This document shows positions 18,423 through 35,001 of a DNA stretch of 37,042 nt, piece by piece; the first letter of the stretch is position 1; every line of letters starts with the position of its first letter. The DNA lies in IMG/VR virus record IMGVR_UViG_2558860170_000002; one strand, given 5' to 3'. Under the pieces are notes generated by a model. It did no database searches. It saw only the letters and a list, made by a program, of their open reading frames with translations, and was not told where the DNA came from. Source of the stretch: a virus (Duplodnaviria > Heunggongvirae > Uroviricota > Caudoviricetes). The translations under genes were made by a program, and so were the position numbers.

Positions 18423-21074
18423 ATGAGTGATATTTTCTCAGGAAGAGAATTATCAGTACAGTATAATGCTGATATTGGTAACAGAACACCACAGGGAGCA
18501 GGCAATGTAGTAATTAAACAGATTAATACTTTTCCAACCTTAACAATAAATTCAGAAGCAAATAATTTTGAAACGTATGATAGTGATTACAGGACAGTAC
18601 TACTATCTGATAAATCAGTAGCACCATTTGATATTGTAGTTAACTACCTACCTGATGATCCTACACATCAATTCTTGGATAATGCCGCTAAGTCTCAGCA
18701 GCTTTTCCAGATCATCATTCAGTACCAGATGAATAAGGATGAAAATACCATTACTTATGCGATGGTGAATGGTTATATCACCTCTTATAAGTTGGACGGT
18801 GATAAAGGTTCAGTAGTAACCAAGGCATACAGTTTTGCCCCACATGATGTGATCGCACGTGCAATGACCATTAACGCACTATCGCCAATCTATCAGGGGG
18901 ACTACGGTTTAGGTTCGAACACTACGGATGTACCTCAGTACTCACCATCAGTACCTACGGGTAACAGCTTCATCAAAGTACCATCATCTCAAGCAGGCAA
19001 TCCTGCCGGGGCGGATCTGATGGGAGTAGGGCTTGTAGATGGCACTACTGTAAGTTCTCTTGCGATGACAAAGACGGGTACTCTAAGTATCTATGCAAAG
19101 AACGCTACAACCGCCTGGACACGCATATATACCGCTACACAGATGGACGGGCGATACGTACCCCTTACACGTACCATCAACGGCCATGCACTCACGGCCA
19201 ATTTAGTACTGAACAGTGAAGATACAGGTTCAGTACCTGATACACGTACTGTGAATGGTAAGCCTCTAAGTGAGGATGTAGTACTTACCAGTACTGATAC
19301 CGGCTCTGTACCAGATACACGGACAGTTAATGGTCATGTACTCAGTGAAGATATAGTACTGAGTAGTGAAGATACAGGTTCAGTACCTGACACGCGTACA
19401 GTGAACGGTCATGTACTTAGTGAAAATGTAGTACTGAGTAGTGAAGATACAGGTTCAGTACCTGATACACGTATGGTCAACGGTCATGTACTCAGTGAGG
19501 ATGTAGTACTTACCAGTACTGATGTTGGCTTAGGGAAGGTTACAGATGATGCCCAGCTTACGATAGCAGGTAATCTAAGTGATCTGGGGGACGTGGAAGA
19601 AGCACGTATTAACCTTGCTGTTTACTCAATGGATGAAGTAGATGCAGAGGTAACGGCTTTAGCTGACAGTATTACTTCCCTTGATTCCGCTTCCATGAAG
19701 AAAGCGAGTAACCTTTCTGATCTATCCAGTCTCTCTACAGCACGTACTAACCTACAGGTGAACCGTTTGACTCAGGGTGCTACGTACACCGATCTGATGA
19801 GTAATGACCTGACTAACCGTATCCGAATTCAGGATAACGGGGCATGGGGTGCAAGTACTGGTACTGGATGGATTGCTTTAGGTATAGGTCAGGGGGGGAC
19901 AGGGGCTACAGATGCTTTGAGTGCTCGCCTAAACTTTCAGGTGGATCGCTTTAATCAAGGTAGTAATTTAACAACTATTAAATCCGCTGATTCTTCCGCT
20001 GCATTAGTGGTTTATGATGGAGGGCAATGGGGTTCAGCTACATATATTGCGGGTGCTTTCACTGGCTGGAAAGCATTAGCAATTCCGCAGGGCGGTACTG
20101 GTGTTAAGACTCAGGCTGAGTTATGGCCTGCGATTCGTCCTACGGGTGCAACTTCTTTAGCAGGAGATCCTGTCTCTGATTCTGACGCGACTACCAAACG
20201 CTGGGTTGAAAACTTGCTGAGTAGTCGTACTTCAGTTAGTCCTCAATGGGATGTTATTGCTTCTTCCCCTTCCTCTACGGCAATTGGTAGTTATGTAACT
20301 GGAGGGCGTATTCGTTCGATATGCAACATTGGTACATCAACTGAAATATCTGGTGGTTTTCGGGTTGGTAAAACGATGGGACAGACTGGACAGGCTGATC
20401 TCACCCTTTTTATTTCTGAAAATGGTGCAGAGGATAAACTATGGGGGCTAAAAGGGCCGACTGGAACGATCCTAACTGATGTTCAATCAGGATGGATGAC
20501 TAATACCGCTGTTTCGGGACCGACAGATGCCAATACCATCACCTTTAACGGTATGTATGCAGGGCCAGGTGACTCAGGTATTAACTATAGTGAAAAATAT
20601 TCCCCTTTATTGCACATGCAAAGATACCCAGGGGCAAATCGCTCTCAGCTTCAGATAGACGGTGGTGGTACTTTAAGAGTACGAGGCGGGAACGGTACAA
20701 CATGGTTTGGATGGTTAGTAATGCAAGCTCAAGGTACATCAGGTCGTGAGTTTAAAAGAGACATAACTCCAGCAAATCCAGTTGAAGCATTAGATCGGAT
20801 AATGTCACAAGATTTAGTAACGTTTATCTACAAGGATGATGAACAAGAAAGGGTTAGGTTTGGTGTTATCGCCGAAGATGCTGAGTTGACTGCTCCGCAG
20901 TACATTAAGCATGATGAAGAAACAGTTGAAATAGAAGGGGAGATTGTCACTCGTGATCATCCACGTGTTGATTTAAATCCAATAGTGATGGACTTGATGG
21001 GAGCTATTCAAGCCCAACAAGAAGAAATTAATCAGCTAAAAGATTTAGTACAACAGCTATTAAATAATAAATAA
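18423..21074 (+). CDS. tail fibre-like protein: major-tail-protein-like N-terminal domain, 25-aa tandem repeats, C-terminal intramolecular chaperone (peptidase S74-like) domain
   Basis: N-terminal about 150 aa is paralogous to the product of 21133-21606 (shared DIFSG...NTF...VNYLPDD..HQ.L). Five 25-aa repeats (TRTVNGHVLSEDVVLSSEDTGSVPD). The C-terminus SGREFKRDITP...ERVRFGVIAEDAE...NPIVMDLMGAIQAQQEEINQLK matches the S74 pattern SDxRxK...GxIAQE...coiled coil. Confidence 0.55.
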   Translation: MSDIFSGRELSVQYNADIGNRTPQGAGNVVIKQINTFPTLTINSEANNFETYDSDYRTVLLSDKSVAPFDIVVNYLPDDPTHQFLDNAAKSQQLFQIIIQYQMNKDENTITYAMVNGYITSYKLDGDKGSVVTKAYSFAPHDVIARAMTINALSPIYQGDYGLGSNTTDVPQYSPSVPTGNSFIKVPSSQAGNPAGADLMGVGLVDGTTVSSLAMTKTGTLSIYAKNATTAWTRIYTATQMDGRYVPLTRTINGHALTANLVLNSEDTGSVPDTRTVNGKPLSEDVVLTSTDTGSVPDTRTVNGHVLSEDIVLSSEDTGSVPDTRTVNGHVLSENVVLSSEDTGSVPDTRMVNGHVLSEDVVLTSTDVGLGKVTDDAQLTIAGNLSDLGDVEEARINLAVYSMDEVDAEVTALADSITSLDSASMKKASNLSDLSSLSTARTNLQVNRLTQGATYTDLMSNDLTNRIRIQDNGAWGASTGTGWIALGIGQGGTGATDALSARLNFQVDRFNQGSNLTTIKSADSSAALVVYDGGQWGSATYIAGAFTGWKALAIPQGGTGVKTQAELWPAIRPTGATSLAGDPVSDSDATTKRWVENLLSSRTSVSPQWDVIASSPSSTAIGSYVTGGRIRSICNIGTSTEISGGFRVGKTMGQTGQADLTLFISENGAEDKLWGLKGPTGTILTDVQSGWMTNTAVSGPTDANTITFNGMYAGPGDSGINYSEKYSPLLHMQRYPGANRSQLQIDGGGTLRVRGGNGTTWFGWLVMQAQGTSGREFKRDITPANPVEALDRIMSQDLVTFIYKDDEQERVRFGVIAEDAELTAPQYIKHDEETVEIEGEIVTRDHPRVDLNPIVMDLMGAIQAQQEEINQLKDLVQQLLNNK
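19167..19529 (+). repeat. 75-bp tandem repeat, about 4.8 copies, in frame within the tail fibre-like gene
   Basis: Unit boundaries read directly at 19167, 19242, 19317, 19392 and 19467; the units are closely similar. Confidence 0.8.
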
Positions 21075-21132
21075 ATATAAACGGGGTGAACGGATTCACT
21101 CCAATAAAATTTTCTTATAAGGATATAAAACT

Positions 21133-21606
21133 ATGGCTATGGATATTTTTTCCGGTGCTAACCTTACTGTAGAAGTAGGTTCAAGTGCTGGTAAAACAGT
21201 TGCTACTGACTTTGTAGAAGTACCAGAGGTAAACACCTTCAGTACTTCAGGCTTTGAAAGTACTGTAATTAGCGTAAAAACATTCAATAATGCTTATGAT
21301 CGTAAGCTATTGGGTACTAAGTCAATCCCGGACATTTCTCTTGCAGTTAACTACTTACCAGATAATGCAGTACATCAGAATTTAGAACAACTTGCAGACG
21401 ATCAGAAACGTTGTCAGGTAAAACTAAGCTATTTTACCGATGCAACTAAAAAAGAAGGTTTCTTTGTAATTTATACCTGCTTTGTTTCAAGTACCACTAT
21501 CGGTGGTGATAAAGATGAAGTAGTAACTAAGACTTTCACCCTTGCAGTTGATGGTGAAGCAATTGATTCAGGTCTGATTACTCCAAAACCAGAATCGGGC
21601 GAATAA
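21133..21606 (+). CDS. putative major tail protein (157 aa)
   Basis: Sits immediately upstream of the chaperone and tape-measure genes and is followed by a strong terminator. Paralogous to the N-terminus of 18423-21074. Confidence 0.5.
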   Translation: MAMDIFSGANLTVEVGSSAGKTVATDFVEVPEVNTFSTSGFESTVISVKTFNNAYDRKLLGTKSIPDISLAVNYLPDNAVHQNLEQLADDQKRCQVKLSYFTDATKKEGFFVIYTCFVSSTTIGGDKDEVVTKTFTLAVDGEAIDSGLITPKPESGE

Positions 21607-21614
21607 TAATAAAT

Positions 21615-21647
21615 AAAGGGAAGGTGCTCAACTTTCCCTTTTTTATT
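21615..21647 (+). terminator. rho-independent terminator
   Basis: AAAGGGA...TCCCTTT stem followed by TTTTTTATT, directly after the major tail protein stop codon. Confidence 0.55.
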
Positions 21648-21957
21648 GGAGATGAAAATGAATTTAAACGAATTGAAGAAAAAACTACAACCAGAATTAA
21701 AACCACATGAAGTAATGGGTGAAATCATCTTTATTCATCGTCCAAATGGTCAGGATTTCCAGAAATGCACTGATGTGGCTAAAACTCTAATCCTATGTGT
21801 AAAAGATGAAAATGGTGATCCTATCTTCGCAGAAGAAGATATTGATGGACGAATTAATGTTAACTCTATTGATTTTGTAATCCAGAATGAAATTTACTCA
21901 GCAATTATTGCTTTAATCAATACTGCGAAACCTGTAGATGAAGTAGAAAAAAAGTAA
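21646..21957 (+). CDS. putative tail assembly chaperone
   Basis: Small acidic protein between the major tail and tape-measure genes; assigned by position. Confidence 0.35.
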   Translation: MEMKMNLNELKKKLQPELKPHEVMGEIIFIHRPNGQDFQKCTDVAKTLILCVKDENGDPIFAEEDIDGRINVNSIDFVIQNEIYSAIIALINTAKPVDEVEKK

Positions 21958-21989
21958 GAGGTGATATCGAATTAAAGTACTTTTGTAAG

Positions 21990-22352
21990 ATGGTTAACAA
22001 AAGAGGCTTATCACCTGAAGAATACTTTAGTTTAGATCCTGATGTACTCAATATGCTTATGATCTACGATACTTTTATAGAACCATCCGGTACGCAGATT
22101 GAAATGATGAAACATGCGTACCAGTGTTACTACACCACTATCAGTAATGGCAACCTAACACCAGAAGCAAGGAAAAGTATCAAGGTACAGGATTTTGATT
22201 TTCTTGATGTGCTTAGTGATAGTACTAAGAGTACTTCAGAGAAAGCTGAAGAAAGAAAATTAAAAACTAAAGAGGCTCAATCCAATGATATTAAATCTAT
22301 AGGGGAGTTAATTAAATCTCAGGTATTAGGAAAGAAAAAGAATGGCAAATAA
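21990..22352 (+). CDS. putative tail assembly chaperone / hypothetical
   Basis: Assigned by position upstream of the tape measure gene. Confidence 0.3.
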   Translation: MVNKRGLSPEEYFSLDPDVLNMLMIYDTFIEPSGTQIEMMKHAYQCYYTTISNGNLTPEARKSIKVQDFDFLDVLSDSTKSTSEKAEERKLKTKEAQSNDIKSIGELIKSQVLGKKKNGK

Positions 22353-24555
22353 TAATAGAATACGTGTAGATATTACGGGTGATTCTTCCGGTTTACAGCG
22401 TGCTTTAAGGTCTGGTACTGAATCATTAGAGGAATTTGGTAGTACTGCTGGTGGCATTGTTGAAGAGTTCACAGGCCGAATAACTGGTATGGCTGGCGGG
22501 TTCGGTACTGCTATGACCGGGATCGCGGGTGCTGCGGCTATTGGTATTGGTGGCCTGGCAGCATTAGTAGAATCATCACGTGAATATGTGCGTGAAATGA
22601 ACCAGATCAGTAAGAGTACCGGATTGTCCGTGGTTCAGTTACAACAGCTATCAGCGGCGTTTAGTGGCCTCGGTCTTGAGATTGATAAGTTTGGTGATTT
22701 CAACAAGGATACCTTGGATAAGCTCGGTGATGCTTTTCGTGCTGGCGGTGGTGTATCCGATGATCTTAAAGAATATGGACTCAACCTACAGGACTATAAC
22801 AAGTACTTAAAACAGGCTGATGGTGGTATGCAGGCTGTGATCCACACCTTTTACGCCATGCGTGATGCAGGTAAATCACAGAGTGAAATAGTTAACGTAA
22901 TGGAAACGTTAGCCAGTGACTCAAGCCACATGATTAGTACTCTTCAGCAGTTCAATAATGAGGCTCAAGCTACAGCCTATATCCAGTCACAAAATGCTGA
23001 AGTAACTAATGATGCTGCTGAAAAATATGCTGAATTCGATAAAAACCTTGGGAAACTTACTACCAGCATTAAAGGTACTATTGCTGATGGCCTATCACCT
23101 TTAGTTAATGCCATGAACAGTGTCTATGATGCTGCAAATCAAAAACCTCACGAGGCAGGTTTGTTTGAAGATCTGAATGAACGTATTAAAACTTCCAAGG
23201 GTTCTCTACAGGATATGTTGGATATCTGGGAAAAATTACGTACAGCAGGGGCATTAAACTACCAGGGTGCAGCACTCAATACTGGCATCATGGATGATAA
23301 GGGCAACAAGGGTAATGAGTTCGCTCAGGCTAAGGCACGTTTAGAAGAACTGGCAAACAACCTAAAGTCCGATGTTGCGGTTGCTACCGCTCCTACTGGC
23401 GGATGGGTTGATCAGGCAAAAGAAGCTGAAGATGCAGCGAAGAAGTTAGAACAACAACGTAAACAGGCAGAAGCGGCACAAAAGGCGGCAGATGCAAAAC
23501 GCCTACAGGCTCAACGTAATCTGGAAGCTGCTCTTGCTCAAGTTGGGGAAGATGGTTTTCAGGTACGTCTACAGCAGTTCGACAGACAACAAAAGGCACT
23601 TCTTAAAACCATCACCGATAGTGCTCAAGTACTCGGTATCAATCCTGATGAAATGCTAAAGAACGCTACTGCATATGGTGCTAAACAACGTACTGATTTA
23701 CTGAATTCAATGGTTGGTTATCAAGATCCTAATCAGGGTCTGAAAGATACCAATGCTCTTATTGGTTCCGGTCTACTCAATGACAATCAGAAGGGGTATC
23801 TGGCACAGCAACAGAATCAGCGTATCAATGGTGGTAATCCATTAGCCTATAACGATACCGATCAGAAGTTGAAAGATAACGCTGATGCTATGAATGCTGA
23901 ACTTCAGCAGAATGAGTTGTTGCTGAAAGGCCATGAGGACTATGAGAAACGTAAAGCTGAGATCACGGCAAAGTACAATGCACAGGCCATCCAAATCAGT
24001 AACCAGAATGCACAGGATCAGTTAAGTATCTTCTCAAGTACTGCACAGTCACTATCACAGGGCATGGTTGATGCGTTTGGGGAAAGTAGTGGGGCTGCAC
24101 AAGCTGCATTTACCCTAAGTAAGAGCATAAGCATTGCACAGACAGTACTTTCAATTCAGTCAGCATTGGCCCAAGCACTCGCTACCCCTTGGCCAGCTTC
24201 ATTGGCAAACTATGCACAAGTACTTTCACTTGGTATGTCGATTATTAGTACTGCAAAGGGTGCTGCTGCTGGTCAGTTCCATGGCGGGGTAGATGAACTA
24301 CCAGCAAGTTATGACAACAAATCATTTGTACTTAAGCAGGGCGAGAGAGTGGTGCAGCCTGAAGCGAATAAGAAATTAACAGCATTCTTGGATAAACAAG
24401 AAGGTGGAAGTACTTCAGGTGATATTACCGTTAACGCACCATTGATCATCCAGGGTGATGTAGCTGATGATGACAAGAAATTTAATGAGATGCTTAAGAA
24501 ACACGCCAATAGTGTTTCTCAAGCTGTGAGAAGTAGTCAAAAACGTAATACATAA
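22342..24555 (+). CDS. tail tape measure protein
   Basis: 737 aa, Ala/Gln-rich with long coiled-coil segments and Gly-rich hydrophobic stretches, in the canonical position. Confidence 0.7.
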   Translation: MANNNRIRVDITGDSSGLQRALRSGTESLEEFGSTAGGIVEEFTGRITGMAGGFGTAMTGIAGAAAIGIGGLAALVESSREYVREMNQISKSTGLSVVQLQQLSAAFSGLGLEIDKFGDFNKDTLDKLGDAFRAGGGVSDDLKEYGLNLQDYNKYLKQADGGMQAVIHTFYAMRDAGKSQSEIVNVMETLASDSSHMISTLQQFNNEAQATAYIQSQNAEVTNDAAEKYAEFDKNLGKLTTSIKGTIADGLSPLVNAMNSVYDAANQKPHEAGLFEDLNERIKTSKGSLQDMLDIWEKLRTAGALNYQGAALNTGIMDDKGNKGNEFAQAKARLEELANNLKSDVAVATAPTGGWVDQAKEAEDAAKKLEQQRKQAEAAQKAADAKRLQAQRNLEAALAQVGEDGFQVRLQQFDRQQKALLKTITDSAQVLGINPDEMLKNATAYGAKQRTDLLNSMVGYQDPNQGLKDTNALIGSGLLNDNQKGYLAQQQNQRINGGNPLAYNDTDQKLKDNADAMNAELQQNELLLKGHEDYEKRKAEITAKYNAQAIQISNQNAQDQLSIFSSTAQSLSQGMVDAFGESSGAAQAAFTLSKSISIAQTVLSIQSALAQALATPWPASLANYAQVLSLGMSIISTAKGAAAGQFHGGVDELPASYDNKSFVLKQGERVVQPEANKKLTAFLDKQEGGSTSGDITVNAPLIIQGDVADDDKKFNEMLKKHANSVSQAVRSSQKRNT

Positions 24556-24565
24556 GAAAGCCCAG

Positions 24566-25138
24566 TTAGGGATTTTCCGTGTGATAAGACAAATATTGTG
24601 AAAGAGAAGATGAAAGGGTATAGAGATTGTAATACTCTTCCCGCAATAATTTAACTTTAGGTGGTGAGTATTTAATATTGTATGCAAGCTGTGTTGAAAG
24701 AGTACGTAATCTCGATAATGAATAATAACTCTTTACGATGGCATCTACTTCTTTTTTTGGGAGTGATGCTAATTTTTCTAATTGGGAATAATATACATCA
24801 TCATGCAAATAAGAAACGGCAGTTGCTACTCTTTTAATAGCTTCTGTATCTTCAGTTGGAAGAGGAATACATATTTCATATGTGCCTAACACCTGAGACT
24901 CATCGCCACCAGTAGCAAGAGCTAAAAGGTTATTGTTGATTTCGCTCAATAAGATTACACGCATCTTAAAAACATCATCTGAACTTTCTTTCCATTTATC
25001 ATATGCGTTATAGCCTATTTGGCCTGCAAATAACAACATAGCAACGATGACGGATGCAGCCTGCCAATCAAGCCTGTTAAAAAAAATACGAATCGAGGTT
25101 TTTAAATAAATAAAGAAAGAAGATATTCGAGGTAACAA
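24566..25138 (-). CDS. hypothetical membrane-associated protein on the opposite strand within the tail module
   Basis: One hydrophobic helix (AASVIVAMLLFAGQIGY). GTAC-poor and AT-rich, unlike its neighbours. The start may be an internal Met. Confidence 0.4.
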   Translation of the reverse strand: MLPRISSFFIYLKTSIRIFFNRLDWQAASVIVAMLLFAGQIGYNAYDKWKESSDDVFKMRVILLSEINNNLLALATGGDESQVLGTYEICIPLPTEDTEAIKRVATAVSYLHDDVYYSQLEKLASLPKKEVDAIVKSYYSLSRLRTLSTQLAYNIKYSPPKVKLLREEYYNLYTLSSSLSQYLSYHTENP

Positions 25139-25139
25139 A

Positions 25140-25697
25140 ATGGCATCCTTTTCAAATCAAATAAAAGTAACGAACTTTCAAATTAAAAGTACTGAACCGA
25201 TCTATTCTAATCAAACATGGACAGGTCAACGTATCATGAGAAGTACTGGAATTCAATACTATCAAATTCAGTTCACCCTTAATTTTAATCCTGCATCACT
25301 AAATGAAGTGAATAGCTTTTTAGCTCAATATGCACAGGGCAAACCTTTCACTATGTCATTGGGGCTTGCAGGTACATATTACGGTAAACAGACTGGTGCA
25401 GTAACCGCTACTGCTCTCACTAAACCGGGTAATATGGTTGTACCTATCAGTACTAACACATTAGCTGTGGGTGAGTGGGTACAGTTTTCCAATCACAATA
25501 AGCTATATCGAATCGTAGAACGTACCAGTACTTCAATTACTATTTTCCCTGCTCTACAAAATACAGTACAGGCAAGTGAAGCACTCAAATATAACAATCT
25601 CATGATCGAGGCTGTATTAGATCCAGACAATGATTATTCATTGCCTATTGGGAACATCATGAATATTACATTGAAAGCAACGGAGAATATCATCTAA
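25140..25697 (+). CDS. minor tail protein (distal tail / gpM-like position)
   Basis: Directly downstream of the tape measure region; assigned by position. Confidence 0.4.
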   Translation: MASFSNQIKVTNFQIKSTEPIYSNQTWTGQRIMRSTGIQYYQIQFTLNFNPASLNEVNSFLAQYAQGKPFTMSLGLAGTYYGKQTGAVTATALTKPGNMVVPISTNTLAVGEWVQFSNHNKLYRIVERTSTSITIFPALQNTVQASEALKYNNLMIEAVLDPDNDYSLPIGNIMNITLKATENII

Positions 25698-26319
25698 TGG
25701 ACTCAGGTATATATACTAATGCTAATCTTCTTAAGTACTGGAAGTTAGTCAGAGGTACAACCAAGACAAGATTAACACTAATGGAAATTATGAGCTTAGG
25801 CGTTAATGTTACTTGTTTTGATGTACTACCAAAAGGTACTAATGGTTTTCACTGGACGGATTCACTAATTGATATAGATCTGGATGGTTATAAGTACATA
25901 AGTTTCCCCGACATTATCAGTGGTTCATTACCTTCATATTCTGAACAAAAGGGCATGTCTAATGATGCTATCAATTTTAAAATTAGCAATGTAAACGCCT
26001 CGGTTCGTGCTCTTGCCCTTGGTGGTTTCTTGAAAGATGCACAGATGAATATCAAGTTAGTAATTCTCAATCCATATGATAGTACTGTAATTGATTCAAT
26101 GCTCATGTTTACGGGGTTTATTGACTATGTACAGGCAGTAACTGATCCAAATCAGAAGCAAAACGAAATGACTATATATGTGAATTCTGTCTATAAGAAA
26201 TTAGACAGACAACCTGCATTAATTGCCGCCAACTCAGTATATCAATCTTACTATAGAAATGATGAGTACTTTAGTCTGTTAGGTCAAGTTAATCAAAATC
26301 AGAACTGGAAATACAAGTA

Positions 26320-26320
<1 letters not shown>
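25697..26320 (+). CDS. minor tail protein, lambda L-like
   Basis: About 207 aa in the L position; assigned by position and size only. Confidence 0.45.
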
Positions 26321-27229
<909 letters not shown>

Positions 27230-27320
27230 TAGACTGGCCCCCTGAATCTCCAGACAACCAGTATCACTTAAATAAGTGATAGTCTTAATACTAGTTTTTA
27301 GACTAGTCATTGGAGTACAG

Positions 27321-27686
27321 ATGATTGATGTCTTAGGGCCGGAGAAACGCAGACGGCGTACCACACAGGAAAAGATCGCAATTGTTCAGCAGAGCTTTGA
27401 ACCGGGGATGACGGTCTCCCTCGTTGCCCGGCAACATGGTGTAGCAGCCAGCCAGTTATTTCTCTGGCGTAAGCAATACCAGGAAGGAAGTCTTACTGCT
27501 GTCGCCGCCGGAGAACAGGTTGTTCCTGCCTCTGAACTTGCTGCCGCCATGAAGCAGATTAAAGAACTCCAGCGCCTGCTCGGCAAGAAAACGATGGAAA
27601 ATGAACTCCTCAAAGAAGCCGTTGAATATGGACGGGCAAAAAAGTGGATAGCGCACGCGCCCTTATTGCCCGGGGATGGGGAGTAA
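27321..27686 (+). CDS. insC: IS2 OrfA (InsC)
   Basis: Identical translation to copy A. Confidence 0.85.
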
Positions 27687-28549
27687 GCTTAGTCAGCCGT
27701 TGTCTCCGGGTGTCGCGTGCGCAGTTGCACGTCATTCTCAGACGAACCGATGACTGGATGGATGGCCGCCGCAGTCGTCACACTGATGATACGGATGTGC
27801 TTCTCCGTATACACCATGTTATCGGAGAGCTGCCCACGTATGGTTATCGTCGGGTATGGGCGCTGCTTCGCAGACAGGCAGAACTTGATGGTATGCCTGC
27901 GATCAATGCCAAACGTGTTTACCGGATCATGCGCCAGAATGCGCTGTTGCTTGAGCGAAAACCTGCTGTACCGCCATCGAAACGGGCACATACAGGCAGA
28001 GTGGCCGTGAAAGAAAGCAATCAGCGATGGTGCTCTGACGGGTTCGAGTTCTGCTGTGATAACGGAGAGAGACTGCGTGTCACGTTCGCGCTGGACTGCT
28101 GTGATCGTGAGGCACTGCACTGGGCGGTGACTACCGGCGGCTTCAACAGTGAAACAGTACAGGACGTCATGCTGGGAGCGGTGGAACGCCGCTTCGGCAA
28201 CGATCTTCCGTCGTCTCCAGTGGAGTGGCTGACGGATAATGGTTCATGCTACCGGGCTAATGAAACACGCCAGTTCGCCCGGATGTTGGGACTTGAACCG
28301 AAGAACACGGCGGTGCGGAGTCCGGAGAGTAACGGAATAGCAGAGAGCTTCGTGAAAACGATAAAGCGTGACTACATCAGTATCATGCCCAAACCAGACG
28401 GGTTAACGGCAGCAAAGAACCTTGCAGAGGCGTTCGAGCATTATAACGAATGGCATCCGCATAGTGCGCTGGGTTATCGCTCGCCACGGGAATATCTGCG
28501 GCAGCGGGCTTGTAATGGGTTAAGTGATAACAGATGTCTGGAAATATAG
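27644..28549 (+). CDS. insD: IS2 transposase OrfB (InsD)
   Basis: Identical translation to copy A. Confidence 0.9.
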
Positions 28550-28565
28550 GGGCAAATCCAGTGGT

Positions 28566-30872
28566 GACTATACGAGTACTAAAACTCTTGCTGCAAAATA
28601 TGCTGGTTCGAAATGGACAAATAAATTTCTTGGTAAGGGTATTGTTAGTATCAGTACCGTTATCTTAAAAACTCAAGATTCATTAGAAAATAATATTCTT
28701 GTTAATGATCAATTCGCTTTAACTGTAGAAATGAAAGGGCAGGTGATTTATGATTTTGTTGATGGTACTTATAAAGCAAGTAGTAACCCTCCTTCAATTA
28801 TCTATGATTACTTAACAAATTCAATCTATGGTATGGGTATTGATCCATCATTGATTAATACCGATACGTTTGCAGAAACCGCAGCATATTGTGATGCTTT
28901 TGAATATTATGCTAATGGTGCTATCAGTTATCAAAAAACCTATAAAGATAATATTGAAAATATCTGTCAGTCATTTGGCGGCATCATGTATGTACATGCC
29001 GGACAAATCTGTATTACCACAGACCGCAAATCGGTATCCGTAGCCTCATTTGATGAGCGTAACATGGTAGGGGCGGTACAGGTTTCTACTTCTGGCGGTA
29101 CTGACTACTTCAACGTAGTCGATTGCAAGTTTACTAACCCTGAATCGATGTACACCACTGACGTAGTACGTATCCCTTCCGATATCACTACGGATGAAGC
29201 AGTACAGCATGATGGACAGGTCATAGCATTATCACGCGATTACTCATGGTCATATGATCAAGAGGTGATTGCAAAAATGGCTAACGTTGATGTACTCAAG
29301 GCTAAGTATGCCCTGCGTACTATCAGCTTCACCACAAGTGAAGGTTGGGATCTCGAAGTATGGGATGCGATCAATGTCAGCAATGAAGAACTCGCTATCT
29401 CAGGCAAATTTAAAGTACTCAATAAAGATATCAGCACCGATCAAGAGAACGTTGGCTATGTAACCATCACGGCAGTAGAAGCACCTGATGCAATGTATGA
29501 TGGTATTGATCCGGGTATCTGGTCGCCTGGTGGGGTAATTAACTTCCCTGAACTACAGGTACTACCGCCAACGAACCTACAGGCAGTACGTAAGGGGAAT
29601 ACTACTTCTGGTTCAATCGTGGATCTTACCTGGGATGCTTCACCAGATCCGTATCTGCGTGGGTACTATGTTTACTACCGTCTTAACGGTTCCAGTACCT
29701 GGACGTATGCGGGGCAGACTGGCGTACAGAAGCTTGATTATGAATTATTTGGATTGTCTGATACTGCAAGCTACGACTTTTCGGTAGAGGCTTACAACAA
29801 CTTAGGGCTGGTATCCAAGAAGCTTTCCCTAACTGGCATTGTTCCAACATTCAACTTTGCACTACCTGCGGTAACGCGTGTAGTACTGACAAATAAAACA
29901 GAATCAGCGTATGTAACTGACTCACCAGATTTCAATATTGCCTGGGATTCACAAAAAGATATCAGAGTGAATAACCGATCATTTAGTGAGTACTTCAAGT
30001 ATTACGTTATTAAAATCTATGACGGTACTAAATTAGTAGATACATTCTATACGCAAAGTAATGCCTTTAATTTCACTCTTGAAATGAACCGTCTGAAAGT
30101 ACGTAAGCCTACCATTGGTATTATCGCACAGGGATTTAATGATGGTACATATTCAGAGGAAGTGAAAATAACCGTAGAGAATAAACAGTGTGGTTTAGTA
30201 GAGGATGTTAGCTTTACGGGTGGTTTTGGTAATTTGTTTGCTTCATGGACTAAATCTACTGAACGTGATTATGCAGGTGCGATTATCAGTATTGTTAATG
30301 GTACTAATACACGTATATTCACCAGTTATGCACCTGAATTTGATTCAATACCAAACATCACTGATGGTGAGTATAAGGTTAAGATGGGATTCTTTGATGT
30401 GTTTGGTACTGATGATATTCAATATTGTCCAGAACAAACAATCAGTATCAACTCCAAGTACCAGTTTACCGAAGATGATGCAGAGGCAATTAACGGGATT
30501 CTTGATTTAGAAGATCGCCTGACTGGTACCATTAATGATGCGGTCAAAATTGCCAATAAGAATACCAGTACTGTTATCAGTGCATCAGAGGCACGTACCA
30601 ATGATAAAATCACTGCCAGTGAGAAAACGTTAAGTACTCAGATCACTGGGGTAAATAGTTCCTTATCACAGAAACTTAGCACCGTTGAAAGTACTGCCAA
30701 TGGTAACAAGGCCAGTATCCAGACACTATCCCAGACGGTAACGGATAACAACAAAGCTCAGACTACAGCAGTCTCACAGCTACGTAGTGATGTGAATGGA
30801 CAGATTGCCACTGTTAACCAGTCAATGAGTACTAAAGCCGATAAATCTACTGTAGATGCTCAGTACTCACTA
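28566..30872 (+). pseudogene. J-like host-specificity protein, central portion
   Basis: About 769 aa with a fibronectin-III-like segment (LTWDASPDPYLRGYYVYYRLNGSSTWTY) and a Ser/Thr-rich C-terminal region. The stop codon is supplied by the IS911 terminus at 30873. Confidence 0.6.
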
Positions 30873-30880
30873 TGAAGTGG

Positions 30881-32049
<1,169 letters not shown>

Positions 32050-32076
32050 TGGAGCACCTGTGTTGTTCTGAGGTGA

Positions 32077-32607
<531 letters not shown>

Positions 32608-34042: not shown

Positions 34043-34085
34043 AAAAAGGCATAGTATGTCATTCGTACTATGCCTTTTCTTTATT
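34041..34085. terminator. bidirectional rho-independent terminator
   Basis: A7, then GGCATAGTA stem, 9-nt loop, TACTATGCC, then TTTTCTTTATT. Lies between the convergent genes at 33770-34042 and 34081-34530. Confidence 0.65.
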
Positions 34086-34530
34086 TGTTTTTAAGTACTG
34101 CAATCATGGAATTCACACGGTTTGGTGTCTGCCTGTACCATAGAGAACACTTAGCCTGTTTAATTGCTTCAAGGTAATCATGTGCTTTCAGGGCTGCTAA
34201 CATCTTACGGAATTTCTTCACCCCGCCAATACCTAACTGGAAGGTCATGATAATAATAAAATCATTCCAGTCATCGGGAAGATTTAACCCTAATGTCTGT
34301 ACCTGCATAATTGTTTTGGCTAAATCGCGAGATAGTAACTTGTCTGCTTCGCTTTCAGTAATGCCAGTACTAAAATCTTCTCCCGCCTGAATTAAGTGAC
34401 CATATCCAATAGTACTACATCCTAAACTATCAGCATATGGATAGAATTTCCCATTTCTGAAGTACTTCAAATTTGCCTGATACTCTTTAGTACCTTCATA
34501 TTCTTTTAATCGTGTTTTTAAATCGCTCAT
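34081..34530 (-). CDS. endolysin, T4-type lysozyme (glycoside hydrolase family 24)
   Basis: E...D...TIGYGH catalytic region and C-terminal SLWYRQTPNRVNSMI, which closely resembles T4 lysozyme SRWYNQTPNRAKRVI. Confidence 0.8.
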   Translation of the reverse strand: MSDLKTRLKEYEGTKEYQANLKYFRNGKFYPYADSLGCSTIGYGHLIQAGEDFSTGITESEADKLLSRDLAKTIMQVQTLGLNLPDDWNDFIIIMTFQLGIGGVKKFRKMLAALKAHDYLEAIKQAKCSLWYRQTPNRVNSMIAVLKNK

Positions 34531-34566: not shown

Positions 34567-35001
34567 ATGATGAGTGAATGGAAATACTCGGATGATTGGA
34601 GCGAGGAGGAAATGTTATCCGGTGAATATGCTGGTTTCGTTTATATCTTTCAGTTTGAGGATGGTTCTAATTATGTCGGTGCTAAGCAAATCTATCAGCG
34701 GGTTAAGGATGCGAGAAAGCTAAAGCCCACTTCAAAGGAAAATGGCTGGCGTGAGTACCTCAGTAGTTCCAATGTCGTTAAAAACAAAATTGAAAATGGT
34801 GAACAGTACTCAAAAACGATTCTATGGTGCTTCGCAACTATGCGAGAGGTAATGATTGTAGAGGCAATACTGATCCTTCATCAGATGCTTAAACCGGAAT
34901 GTTTGAATCTGGCAATGATGAGTAAGATTAGATCACCAAATGCAAAGGATAAAAAAAGACTACTCGGAATAGTACAGGAACTATTGGAGTACTTGAATTG
35001 A
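34567..35001 (+). CDS. hypothetical protein, possible GIY-YIG-like motif
   Basis: GFVYIF...(9 aa)...YVG resembles the GIY...YIG spacing; downstream Arg and Glu are present. Weak. Confidence 0.3.
   Translation: MMSEWKYSDDWSEEEMLSGEYAGFVYIFQFEDGSNYVGAKQIYQRVKDARKLKPTSKENGWREYLSSSNVVKNKIENGEQYSKTILWCFATMREVMIVEAILILHQMLKPECLNLAMMSKIRSPNAKDKKRLLGIVQELLEYLN

What the first reader, a model, noticed from the sequence alone, without database searches (positions are those of the whole stretch)
24566..25138. Reverse-strand, compositionally foreign gene inserted between tape measure and distal tail genes
This is the only minus-strand gene in the otherwise co-linear tail operon. It is GTAC-poor (1 in 573 bp against 9 in the adjacent 560 bp) and encodes a membrane-associated protein of unknown function. 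Its position and composition mark it as a moron, and morons in this region are often host-benefiting or defence genes.
Basis: partly seen in the sequence, partly recalled or inferred. Interest (0 to 1): 0.55.

Follow-up and report, generated by a model that had tools for sequence, protein, structure and literature searches.

The report
Swappable prophage membrane-protein gene beside tape measure
This is a real accessory gene that sits backwards between two tail genes of a defective Shigella-type prophage; it encodes a small membrane-anchored protein of an uncharacterised family, is exchanged among related phages as a cassette, and most likely protects the host cell from other phages, though that is untested.

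Summary
Window 24566-25138 (- strand) is a 190-codon gene that fills the gap between the tape-measure gene and the distal-tail gene. It has 1 GTAC against 9 next door. It is under purifying selection (dN/dS 0.09-0.22).

The "moron" reading is supported by comparative data:
- In 43 related viral contigs the same junction is empty in 18, holds this family in 14, unrelated DUF6216 membrane proteins in 7, DUF726 hydrolase-like proteins in 3, and an IS1 in 1.
- Near-isogenic phage pairs (93-98% identical flanks) differ only in this cassette.
- Two decayed prophage remnants, in Citrobacter and Enterobacter, keep this ORF intact while the flanking tail genes are pseudogenes.

The predicted protein is an N-in, single-pass inner-membrane anchor plus a periplasmic four-helix bundle. 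It has no Pfam, PADLOC or PDB match. Remote homologues occupy the P2 Z/fun conversion locus and integrase-proximal cargo sites next to defence genes.

Best guess (about 0.5): prophage-encoded superinfection exclusion or defence at the envelope. The layout matches P22 sieA, but the sequences are unrelated. No consensus promoter or terminator was found, and no function has been tested. It is a good lead of moderate interest, not a new principle.

The parts
24566..25138 (-). Accessory gene, 190 codons plus stop, TTG start at 25138. Encodes a single-pass membrane protein of an uncharacterised family.
   Evidence: ORF; homologues; dN/dS 0.09-0.22; it is the exchanged unit.
25146..25150 (-). AAGGA Shine-Dalgarno sequence, 7 nt upstream of the TTG start. 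It lies inside the first codons of the distal-tail gene on the other strand.
   Evidence: Sequence. Conserved in L001, L005 and L006, but that conservation cannot be separated from conservation of the distal-tail protein's N-terminus.
25010..25060 (-). Codons 27-43 (AASVIVAMLLFAGQIGY): the predicted transmembrane anchor. The N-terminal flank has net charge +3, so the predicted topology is N-in, C-out.
   Evidence: hydropathy and charge across 16 family members; AlphaFold2 continuous helix 25-77.
24839..24913 (-). Codons 76-100: the most conserved stretch (TGGDES..GT..CIPLP..D.EA). It is predicted to be a loop on the periplasmic bundle and is a candidate interaction site.
   Evidence: invariant columns; low pLDDT for residues 80-94 between helices.
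24576..25134 (.). The segment that differs from the 95%-identical relative L036, which carries a DUF6216 cassette instead. This is the exchanged cassette.
   Evidence: homology to L036 ends at window 24575 and resumes at 25135.
24556..24577 (.). Decayed remnant of the hairpin that follows the tape-measure stop codon in relatives. The accessory gene's last codons and its stop (TTA on the + strand at 24566-24568) lie inside it.
   Evidence: Relatives fold strongly here (L036 -18.1 kcal/mol, z -4.0; L041 -15.1 kcal/mol, z -3.4); the window does not (centroid -6.4 kcal/mol on the - strand, z -0.5; -9.4 kcal/mol on the + strand, z -1.1).
25129..25132 (+). GAGG ribosome-binding site of the distal-tail gene. 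It is embedded in codons 3-4 of the accessory gene on the other strand.
   Evidence: Sequence.
22342..24555 (+). Tape-measure gene, convergent with the accessory gene. Left anchor of the hotspot.
   Evidence: phrog_13674, E 5e-86.
25140..25697 (+). Distal-tail (Dit) gene, divergent from the accessory gene. Right anchor of the hotspot.
   Evidence: phrog_1302; weak match to the pb9 B domain.

Best explanation
The ORF is a genuine accessory ('moron') cassette. It occupies a recombination hotspot between the tape-measure and distal-tail genes of a lineage of temperate enterobacterial siphophages.

It encodes a bitopic inner-membrane protein: a basic cytoplasmic N-terminus, one transmembrane helix (residues 27-43), and a periplasmic domain of about 145 residues. 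That domain is a four-helix bundle carrying a highly conserved loop.

Proposed mechanism (inferred, not shown): the gene is transcribed antisense to the late operon, so it would be made in the lysogen when the late genes are silent. Sitting in the inner membrane, it would interfere with genome delivery by incoming phages. It could do this by binding the ejected tape-measure or tail-tip conduit, or a host membrane component that the conduit needs. That is superinfection exclusion of the kind shown by P22 SieA and HK97 gp15. The host benefit would explain why the gene survives in decaying prophages and is traded among mobile elements.

Shown here: it is a real gene, it is accessory and exchangeable, it is retained in remnants, it has a membrane-anchor architecture, and its family is spread over accessory loci of other mobile elements.

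Inferred only: expression in the lysogen, the anti-phage role, and a block at the DNA-entry step.
For: 1. Real gene.
- dN/dS is 0.09-0.22 across alleles.
- The reading frame and length are kept at 31-87% amino-acid identity.
- The start codon is TTG, GTG or ATG at the same site.

2. Accessory and swappable. Nucleotide identity, flanking genes against the cassette:
- L006 vs L012: flanks 0.96-0.98, cassette 0.56.
- L024 vs L026: flanks 0.93-0.97, cassette 0.62.
- L006 vs L026: flanks 0.76-0.78, cassette 0.92.
Breakpoints coincide with the ORF. L036 is 94.5-95% identical to the window on both sides but carries a DUF6216 gene instead. Empty-site relatives L041 and L067 are about 90% identical to cassette-bearing L037 and L068. 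Census of 43 loci: 18 empty, 14 this family, 7 DUF6216, 3 DUF726, 1 IS1.

3. Host-level selection.
- In the Citrobacter (L001-4) and Enterobacter (L005) prophage remnants, the flanking distal-tail, tape-measure and 207-aa genes have stops in every frame and many indels. This ORF is intact.
- pN/pS of the remnant copy against intact phages is about 0.2.
- The window's own prophage is defective, with IS elements in the J gene and probably in the large terminase gene. The ORF is still intact.

4. Envelope protein.
- The N-terminal flank has net charge +3 to +7, the hydrophobic 17-mer has a Kyte-Doolittle mean of 1.7-2.5, and the C-terminal flank is about neutral in the full-length family members.
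- The AlphaFold2 model (pLDDT 79.6) shows a transmembrane helix running into a helical bundle.

5. Company kept by homologues.
- hhalign of the close-family profile against a P2-like phage protein gives probability 95.5%, E 1.5e-8. That protein sits at the G/FI (Z/fun) lysogenic-conversion locus.
- Other remote homologues lie next to the integrase in integrative elements. Their neighbours include the PADLOC defence candidates PDC-S66 TIR (E 2e-112) and DUF4238-Pers. Rousset et al. 2022 (PMC9122126) report that a single DUF4238-domain protein from the P2 hotspot gives strong resistance to T7.

6. Layout precedent. P22 sieA is also a reverse-strand gene, convergent 22 bp behind the last DNA-conduit gene (gene 16). 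It is present in 22 of 66 P22-like phages, exists as three divergent types, and blocks DNA injection from the inner membrane (PMC10883804). HK97 gp15 is a tail-operon moron next to the tape-measure gene that blocks genome entry (PMC3594210).
Against: - There is no functional data of any kind.
- No homology to any characterised exclusion protein: P22 SieA hhalign probability 0.3%; HK97 gp15 BLASTP E 0.4.
- No PADLOC hit and no Pfam hit.
- Fold searches return only generic helical bundles.
- No consensus sigma-70 promoter on the - strand and no terminator. Any promoter would have to lie inside the distal-tail coding sequence, so expression in the lysogen is unproven.
- Allele type does not track the adjacent tape-measure sequence: the tape measure is 98% identical between phages carrying alleles that are 56% identical. 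There is therefore no co-evolution signal pointing to the phage's own tape measure as the target.
- The hydrophobic segment is marginal in the window's allele (mean 1.5 over 19 residues, 1.79 over 17).
- The links to the remote homologues are weak at the sequence level (E about 1e-4 to 1e-5), although the shared phrog_3829 hits and hhalign back them up.
Confidence: 0.5

Rival explanations
1. Abortive-infection or membrane-damaging effector. The protein stays inert in the membrane until an infecting phage triggers it. It then depolarises or permeabilises the inner membrane and kills the cell before progeny are made.
For: - A remote homologue lies directly downstream of a TIR-domain gene.
- Rousset et al. 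(PMC9122126) note that transmembrane proteins in defence systems are usually suicide effectors.
Against: - In the phage lineage the gene stands alone, with no sensor partner.
- The TIR neighbour matches a single-gene PADLOC candidate (PDC-S66). It is absent from the closely similar element L030, where the homologue follows the integrase directly.
- One moderately hydrophobic helix is a poor pore former.
- The ClyA match is no better than matches to designed bundles.
Confidence: 0.15
2. A lysogenic-conversion gene unrelated to phage defence. It could alter the envelope (stress, colicin or serum resistance, adhesion), or exclude conjugative DNA rather than phage DNA.
For: - The retention in decayed prophages and the cassette behaviour show host benefit only, not what the benefit is.
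- Remote homologues sit in integrative elements that carry type IV pilus, TraD and MobA genes, so an entry-exclusion role for conjugation is conceivable.
- A P0007-type homologue lies in a non-phage chromosomal context next to a Sel1-repeat protein.
Against: - The gene's recurrent placement next to DNA-delivery genes and in the P2 Z/fun locus is more typical of inter-phage competition. The same holds for the neighbourhood of defence genes.
- The divergent allele types at one locus are also more typical of inter-phage competition.
Confidence: 0.2
3. A phage life-cycle gene, such as a tail-assembly, injection or lysis-timing accessory factor, that happens to be encoded on the other strand.
For: - It is located inside the tail module, 1 bp from the distal-tail gene and 10 bp from the tape-measure gene.
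- It has no promoter or terminator of its own.
Against: - Close relatives have an empty site or an unrelated gene at this position.
- The gene stays intact where all the neighbouring tail genes are pseudogenes.
- Homologues occur outside phages.
Confidence: 0.05
4. A spurious ORF on the antisense strand of a long tape-measure/distal-tail spacer.
For: - Non-ATG start codon.
- AT-rich sequence.
- No Pfam domain.
Against: - dN/dS of 0.09-0.22 and conserved length at 31% identity.
- 11 hits in an exhaustive search, including three at E below 1e-30.
- A confident helical model once 17 sequences were aligned.
Confidence: 0.01

Closest known systems
P22 SieA (superinfection exclusion A of Salmonella phage P22; Leavitt et al. 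2024, PMC10883804)
   Same: - Reverse-strand gene of about 160-190 codons, convergent with and a few bp behind the last gene of the DNA-delivery conduit. In P22 that is gene 16, with a 22-bp gap. Here it is the tape-measure gene, with a 10-bp gap.
- Present in only a fraction of relatives.
- Several divergent types occupy one locus.
- Inner-membrane protein: shown for SieA, predicted here.
   Different: - No detectable homology (hhalign probability 0.3%; BLASTP E 2.5).
- SieA has several hydrophobic segments (sequence), whereas this protein has one.
- SieA has a mapped promoter of its own; none was found here.
- SieA's function is demonstrated; this protein's is not.
HK97 gp15 (YebO-like moron next to the tape-measure gene; Cumby et al. 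2012, reviewed in PMC3594210)
   Same: - A small membrane-protein moron inside the tail operon, adjacent to the tape-measure gene.
- Blocks genome entry without touching the receptor, which is the role proposed here.
- Has homologues outside prophages.
   Different: - gp15 is 62 aa, lies on the same strand as the operon, sits upstream of the tape-measure gene, and belongs to Pfam YebO.
- This protein is 190 aa, lies on the opposite strand, sits downstream of the tape-measure gene, and has no YebO match.
The P2 Z/fun lysogenic-conversion locus and the P2/P4 defence hotspots (Rousset et al. 2022, PMC9122126)
   Same: - A fixed site in a conserved morphogenetic module where unrelated AT-rich accessory or defence cassettes replace one another.
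- A remote homologue of this protein actually sits at the G/FI (Z/fun) site of 13 P2-like phage records.
   Different: - A different phage type and a different junction.
- The hotspot studied by Rousset et al. is the cos-proximal one.
- In the parts of that paper I searched, I found no test of the P2-like homologue.
Tai/Ati of phage phi80 (He et al. 2024, PMC11364771) and Tab of JBD26 (PMC10884400)
   Same: - Prophage morons embedded in the late operon.
- tai is transcribed divergently, interrupting the operon (a 'non-contiguous operon').
- These defences target tail proteins; Tab targets the tape measure.
   Different: - They are cytoplasmic assembly blockers located near the packaging genes.
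- No similarity was tested or expected.
- This protein is predicted to face the periplasm, so it could not reach tails assembling in the cytoplasm.
phrog_3829 (PHROGs family, function unknown)
   Same: - The window protein matches it at E 1e-5, the distant phage allele L068 at 3.7e-6, and the integrative-element homologue P0012 at 2.8e-23.
- It is the only library family that matches.
   Different: - The family is unannotated.
- The window's clade is a divergent branch of it, covering profile positions 8-134 of 197.

Membership tests
Moron (Juhala/Hendrix sense, as summarised in PMC3594210) | Present in some genomes and absent from close relatives at the same position | tested here: met
   18 empty sites, 14 with this family and 10 with other cassettes among 43 loci. 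Near-isogenic empty and filled pairs.
Moron (Juhala/Hendrix sense, as summarised in PMC3594210) | Nucleotide composition differs from the neighbouring genes and the evolutionary history is independent | tested here: met
   GC 0.34 against 0.41. GTAC at expectation against about 2-fold enriched flanks, in all alleles. Cassette identity is uncoupled from flank identity.
Moron (Juhala/Hendrix sense, as summarised in PMC3594210) | Own promoter and terminator, i.e. an independent transcription unit | tested here: inconclusive
   No - strand sigma-70 consensus match and no terminator in 24000-26000. The gene abuts both neighbours. Only a decayed hairpin remains at its 3' end. The distant allele in L068 has a strong hairpin after its stop codon.
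Moron (Juhala/Hendrix sense, as summarised in PMC3594210) | Expressed from the repressed prophage | not testable with these tools
   Needs strand-specific RNA-seq or TSS mapping of a lysogen.
P22 SieA family | Sequence homology, including the FxRYPxEAxxFNK motif | tested here: not met
   hhalign probability 0.3%; BLASTP E 2.5; the motif is absent from the sequence.
P22 SieA family | Reverse-strand position directly behind the DNA-conduit gene | tested here: met
   One search compared.
P22 SieA family | Blocks DNA injection by related phages | not testable with these tools
   Needs plaque, K+ efflux and DNA-entry assays.
HK97 gp15 / YebO (PF13974) | Match to the Pfam YebO profile | tested here: not met
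   gp15 matches YebO at E 1.2e-8. The window protein has no Pfam match.
phrog_3829 | Significant match to the family profile | tested here: met
   E 1e-5, 26.4 bits, residues 21-143. Supported by hhalign probability 95.5% to a P2-like phage homologue of P0012; P0012 itself matches phrog_3829 at 2.8e-23.
Known anti-phage defence systems (PADLOC-DB v2) | Match to any defence-protein model | tested here: not met
   No family matched at E up to 1 for the window protein and L006, or at E up to 0.01 for P0006, P0007, P0012, P0016 and P0018. P0008 gave only chance-level matches at E about 0.005.
DUF6216 (PF19723), the alternative cassette at the same site | Profile or sequence similarity | tested here: not met
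   hhalign probability 1%; no Pfam hit.
Bitopic inner-membrane protein, N-in / C-out | One hydrophobic helix with a positive-inside charge bias, conserved across the family | tested here: met
   N-terminal flank +3 to +7 in the full-length members; helix 25-77. This is a prediction only; localisation was not tested experimentally.

The most novel reading that the evidence does not exclude
Two linked claims:

1. The tape-measure/distal-tail junction of this siphophage lineage is an unrecognised exclusion or defence hotspot. It holds at least three unrelated reverse-strand cassette families: this one, DUF6216 and DUF726.

2. This protein belongs to a new class of single-pass, periplasm-facing blockers of DNA entry that crosses mobile-element types. 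Its members are shared by siphophages, P2-like myophages (Z/fun locus) and integrative conjugative elements, and the divergent allele types set different exclusion specificities.
Probability: 0.25. Interest if true: 0.65.

Novelty: new member of a known kind. Interest (0 to 1): 0.5.

Why it matters
- Few superinfection-exclusion proteins of Gram-negative siphophages are known, and they are mechanistically obscure (HK97 gp15, Cor, SieA in podophages).
- A rare family that is clearly under selection would be a tractable handle on how tape-measure-mediated genome delivery crosses the periplasm and inner membrane. Only 11 hits were found among 1.84 billion representative proteins.
- The family sits at a defined, swappable site beside the tape-measure gene, and natural allele series and empty-site controls already exist.
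- The hotspot also nominates two further untested candidates, DUF6216 and DUF726.
- The gene survives in heavily IS-ridden Shigella sonnei prophages and in remnants in Citrobacter and Enterobacter. This suggests it contributes to the phage-resistance profile of clinical Enterobacteriaceae, which matters for phage therapy and typing.
- If it has no phage phenotype, it is simply one more orphan moron.

Tried and rejected
Database searches that found nothing:
- Near-identity DNA searches of the phage, plasmid and complete E. coli genome collections returned only IS2 matches or nothing.
- tblastn of the protein against phage records found nothing.
- No usable annotation from Pfam, NCBIfam or PADLOC. 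The one NCBIfam hit, a Na+/H+ antiporter at 15.6 bits against a cutoff of 558, is noise.
- Profile search of PDB sequences: 0 hits.
- Rfam scan of the whole window: nothing.

Structure:
- The first AlphaFold2 run, with 5 sequences, was unusable (pLDDT 44). The second, with 17 sequences, was usable (pLDDT 79.6).
- The afdb50 library was unavailable.

Technical failure:
- The search for related loci with the wide alignment failed because it had no conserved stretch.

Ideas considered and rejected:
- Lipoprotein: there is no lipobox, and the Cys in "LGC" is present in only one allele.
- Cleavable signal peptide: no conserved AxA-type cleavage site.
- Two-gene TIR plus transmembrane defence system. 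The TIR neighbour matches a single-gene PADLOC candidate. It is also missing from the sister element L030.
- Homology to P22 SieA, HK97 gp15 or DUF6216.
- Flanking repeats around the cassette that would suggest site-specific insertion: none found. Exchange is best explained by homologous recombination in the conserved tape-measure 3' end and distal-tail 5' end.
- A repeated TATAAATAC late-promoter-like motif in the window: not enriched (21 observed against 18.7 expected).
Full report
**1. What is at the coordinates**

Window 24566-25138 holds a 190-codon ORF on the - strand with a TTG start.
- Upstream on the + strand lies the 737-aa tape-measure gene (22342-24555; phrog_13674, E 5e-86).
- Downstream lies the 185-aa distal-tail gene (25140-25697; phrog_1302, E 8e-17; weak match to the pb9 B domain).
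- The ORF fills the gap almost exactly. Its stop codon is 10 bp from the tape-measure stop codon. Its start codon is 1 bp from the distal-tail ATG.
- An AAGGA Shine-Dalgarno sequence lies 7 nt upstream of the TTG, inside the first codons of the distal-tail gene.
- The GAGG ribosome-binding site of the distal-tail gene lies inside codons 3-4 of the ORF.

The window is a Shigella sonnei-type prophage: the identical protein is annotated from S. sonnei. The prophage is defective.
- An IS2 copy (27276-28549) and an IS3-family element (30881-32085) split the J-like tail-tip gene into three pieces.
- A second, inverted IS2 (11012-12285) abuts a large terminase gene that lacks its N-terminal ATPase part.
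- An IS21-family element lies at 5300-7269.

**2. The compositional observation**

The GTAC counts are as stated: 1 in the ORF, 9 in the distal-tail gene and 6 in the 560 bp upstream.

The background is what is unusual.
- GTAC is 2.8-fold over-represented in the window (349 observed, 123 +/- 10 expected).
- In every structural gene it is about twice what the amino-acid sequence and codon usage predict. Most of the excess is AGT-ACT and GGT-ACT codon pairs.
- The ORF has 1 GTAC against 1.1 expected.

A 573-bp stretch with no more than 1 GTAC is not rare here: 11% of sliding windows qualify, mostly in IS elements and a few other genes. However, five different alleles of the gene in relatives have 0-2 GTAC, against 3-11 in each 600-bp flank. 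GC is 0.31-0.35 in the alleles and 0.41-0.43 in the flanks. The compositional contrast is therefore real and is a property of the cassette. GC alone would not single it out.

**3. It is a real gene**

An indexed search of 5.8 billion proteins found five clusters:

| Source | Identity to the window protein |
|---|---|
| S. sonnei | 100% |
| Citrobacter | 87% |
| Enterobacter | 84% |
| Klebsiella | 58% |
| Dryocola | 59% |

An exhaustive profile search of 1.84 billion representatives found only 11 hits, so the family is rare.
- Pairwise dN/dS is 0.09-0.22.
- Frame and length are preserved down to 31% identity.
- The start position is supported by TTG in the window, GTG in L024 and ATG one codon later in L012.

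**4. It is an exchangeable cassette at a hotspot**

The gene occupies the same place, on the reverse strand between the tape-measure and distal-tail genes, in intact related prophages (L006, L007, L012, L015, L019, L024-27).

Its sequence history is uncoupled from its neighbours. Nucleotide identity over the 134-aa gene, the 207-aa gene, the distal-tail gene, the cassette and the tape-measure gene:

| Pair | 134 aa | 207 aa | Dit | Cassette | Tape measure |
|---|---|---|---|---|---|
| L006 vs L012 | 0.96 | 0.97 | 0.97 | 0.56 | 0.98 |
| L024 vs L026 | 0.97 | 0.97 | 0.93 | 0.62 | 0.97 |
| L006 vs L026 | 0.76 | 0.78 | 0.78 | 0.92 | 0.77 |
| window vs L019 | 0.75 | 0.74 | 0.73 | 0.84 | 0.74 |

Identity collapses 25-40 nt after the start codon and recovers at the tape-measure stop codon.

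I then anchored a scan of viral contigs on the distal-tail protein. It returned 43 loci:

| State of the junction | Loci |
|---|---|
| Empty (42-240 bp) | 18 |
| This family (190-197 aa) | 14 |
| Reverse-strand DUF6216 multi-pass membrane proteins | 7 |
| Reverse-strand DUF726 (alpha/beta-hydrolase-like) proteins | 3 |
| IS1 insertion | 1 |

Near-isogenic comparisons settle the point.
- L036, with a DUF6216 cassette, is 94.5% and 95% identical to the window on the two sides. Homology stops at window 24575 and resumes at 25135.
- Empty L041 and filled L037 are 91.6% and 89.4% identical in the flanks.
- In the distant branch, empty L067 and filled L068 are 93.7% and 91.1% identical in the flanks.

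Empty sites carry a strong hairpin after the tape-measure stop codon, then TATAAATAC and the distal-tail ribosome-binding site.
- In the window the hairpin has decayed (z -0.5 to -1.1).
- Both this family and the DUF6216 genes end inside it, with final residues ...NP* and ...KP*.
- No flanking repeats were found. Exchange by homologous recombination in the conserved flanks is the simplest mechanism; this is an inference.

**5. It is kept when the phage decays**

In Citrobacter (L001-4) the gene lies in a 4.7-kb prophage remnant that splits a HAD-hydrolase gene beside modABC/gal. In Enterobacter (L005) it lies in a different remnant, beside recombinase and IS fragments.

In both remnants DNA homology to the window extends into the tape-measure 3' end and the distal-tail gene; in L001-4 it also reaches the start of the 207-aa gene. 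Those flanks carry stops in all three frames and many indels, while the ORF is intact.
- The Enterobacter copy is 96% identical, with no indel, to intact phage L019.
- The adjacent distal-tail pseudogene is 86% identical, with at least 7 frameshifting indels.
- pN/pS for the ORF over that interval is about 0.2.

This is the strongest indication that the gene benefits the cell rather than the virion.

**6. The protein**

- All full-length family members have a basic N-terminal flank (net +3 to +7). This is followed by one hydrophobic segment (17-residue Kyte-Doolittle mean 1.7-2.5; 1.79 in the window) and then a roughly neutral flank. That predicts N-in, C-out.
- There is no lipobox and no conserved signal-peptidase site.
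- With 17 sequences, AlphaFold2 gives pLDDT 79.6 and pTM 0.64. The model has an amphipathic helix (6-22), a long helix (25-77) containing the anchor, and a low-confidence loop (78-96). Helices 97-125, 128-153 and 159-188 then pack as a bundle.
- The low-confidence loop is the most conserved stretch: TGGDES..GT..CIPLP..D.EA.
- Residues invariant across the whole family are E66, N70, L126 and Y138.

**7. Wider family and the company it keeps**

The only library family that matches is phrog_3829, of unknown function.
- The window protein matches at E 1e-5 and L068 at 3.7e-6.
- The remote homologue P0012 matches at 2.8e-23.

P0012-type proteins are found in two further settings.
- In 13 P2-like phage records they lie between tail-fibre assembly gene G and sheath gene FI. 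That is the classical Z/fun lysogenic-conversion locus. hhalign of the close-family profile against that P2-like protein gives probability 95.5%, E 1.5e-8.
- Other remote members follow the integrase of integrative elements that carry type IV pilus, TraD and MobA genes. Their neighbours include PADLOC candidates PDC-S66 (TIR, E 2e-112) and DUF4238-Pers.
- One member is chromosomal, next to a Sel1-repeat protein.

The family is thus a cargo gene of several kinds of mobile element.

**8. Mechanism**

Direct evidence stops at this: an accessory, host-beneficial, membrane-anchored protein. I commit to prophage-encoded exclusion or defence at the envelope (about 0.5). Within that, I favour interference with genome delivery across the periplasm and inner membrane (about 0.3).

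Reasons:
- The predicted periplasm-facing bundle on an inner-membrane anchor is where the ejected tape measure forms the DNA conduit.
- The antisense position in the late operon predicts expression in the lysogen and silencing during lytic growth.
- The layout matches P22 sieA. That gene lies on the reverse strand, 22 bp behind ejection-protein gene 16. It is present in 22 of 66 P22-like phages and exists as three divergent types. [quoted passage not shown]
- HK97 gp15 is a membrane moron next to the tape-measure gene that blocks entry in a tail-dependent manner (PMC3594210).
- SNIPE shows that membrane-bound defences can associate with tape-measure proteins at the injection site (PMC13190303).

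Against:
- No homology to any of these proteins.
- No promoter or terminator was detected.
- Allele type does not co-vary with the adjacent tape-measure gene.

Rivals are an abortive-infection membrane effector (0.15), a non-phage conversion or conjugation-exclusion function (0.2), a phage-cycle role (0.05) and a spurious ORF (0.01).

**9. Verdict**

The function remains unproven.

The gene is a new, uncharacterised family of a known kind of element: a prophage moron, probably for superinfection exclusion. A useful by-product is the definition of a multi-cassette hotspot at the tape-measure/distal-tail junction. Interest is moderate (0.5).

Noticed in passing
whole window; e.g. structural genes 12372-30875: GTAC (the RsaI site, a palindrome) is 2.8-fold over-represented: 349 observed against 123 +/- 10 expected. 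In the structural genes it is about 2-fold above what amino-acid sequence plus codon usage predict, mostly as AGT-ACT and GGT-ACT codon pairs. The related prophages show the same excess (6.7-11.7 GTAC per kb). IS elements and the accessory cassette lack it. The cause is unknown.
   Followed up: partly
window 19204-19518 (inside ORF 18423-21074, 883 aa, Peptidase_S74 C-terminus): A 75-bp tandem repeat, 4.2 copies at 79% match, inside a fibre-like gene encoded upstream of the tail-tube gene. Each unit carries several GTAC sites.
   Followed up: partly
window 11012-12285 (-) and 27276-28549 (+): Two inverted IS2 copies, each with ORFs of 136 and 301 aa and GC 0.55. One interrupts the J-like tail-tip gene. 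The other abuts a large terminase gene that lacks its N-terminal ATPase part. Together they bracket the whole head-tail module like a composite transposon.
   Followed up: partly
window 5300-7269 (-): An IS21-family element (IstB 266 aa, IstA-like 390 aa) in the early region. It stands out as a GC-rich block (0.53).
   Followed up: partly
window 30881-32085 (-): An IS3-family element, 89% identical to one in the Enterobacter locus L005. It makes a second break in the J gene, whose pieces are 26717-27232, 28524-30875 and 32155-32607. The prophage cannot make tails.
   Followed up: partly
window 25106/25107; loci L008-L011: Four independent S. sonnei short-read contigs all end at codon 11/12 of the accessory gene, and 38 database members of that cluster are 'partial'. 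This suggests a repeat, probably an IS, inserted at this point in a sublineage of S. sonnei. That would truncate or re-promote the gene.
   Followed up: partly
loci L036, L046, L061, L064-L066, L075 (DUF6216); L038-L040 (DUF726): At the same tape-measure/distal-tail junction, relatives carry reverse-strand genes of two unrelated types. One is DUF6216 multi-pass membrane proteins (203-269 aa). The other is DUF726 alpha/beta-hydrolase-like proteins (260-262 aa, phrog_35015). Neither is in PADLOC. Both are candidates for the same kind of role.
   Followed up: partly
loci L041, L042, L047, L051, L053, L059 (empty sites), positions about 3940-4000: The empty junctions share a strong GC-rich hairpin directly after the tape-measure stop codon, followed by a conserved TATAAATAC motif and the distal-tail ribosome-binding site. 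The motif resembles a T4-type late promoter -10 element, but it is not enriched in the window.
   Followed up: partly
window 34081-34530 (-) and 34567-35001 (+): The lysozyme gene is also on the reverse strand and is only 61% identical to its Dryocola counterpart. The next ORF is 41% identical; its counterpart in relatives is a SegE-like GIY-YIG protein. The neighbours are 69-86% identical. This may be a second variable region.
   Followed up: no
window 533-1087 and 2134-2877: Two HNH endonuclease ORFs in the early or left region of the prophage.
   Followed up: no
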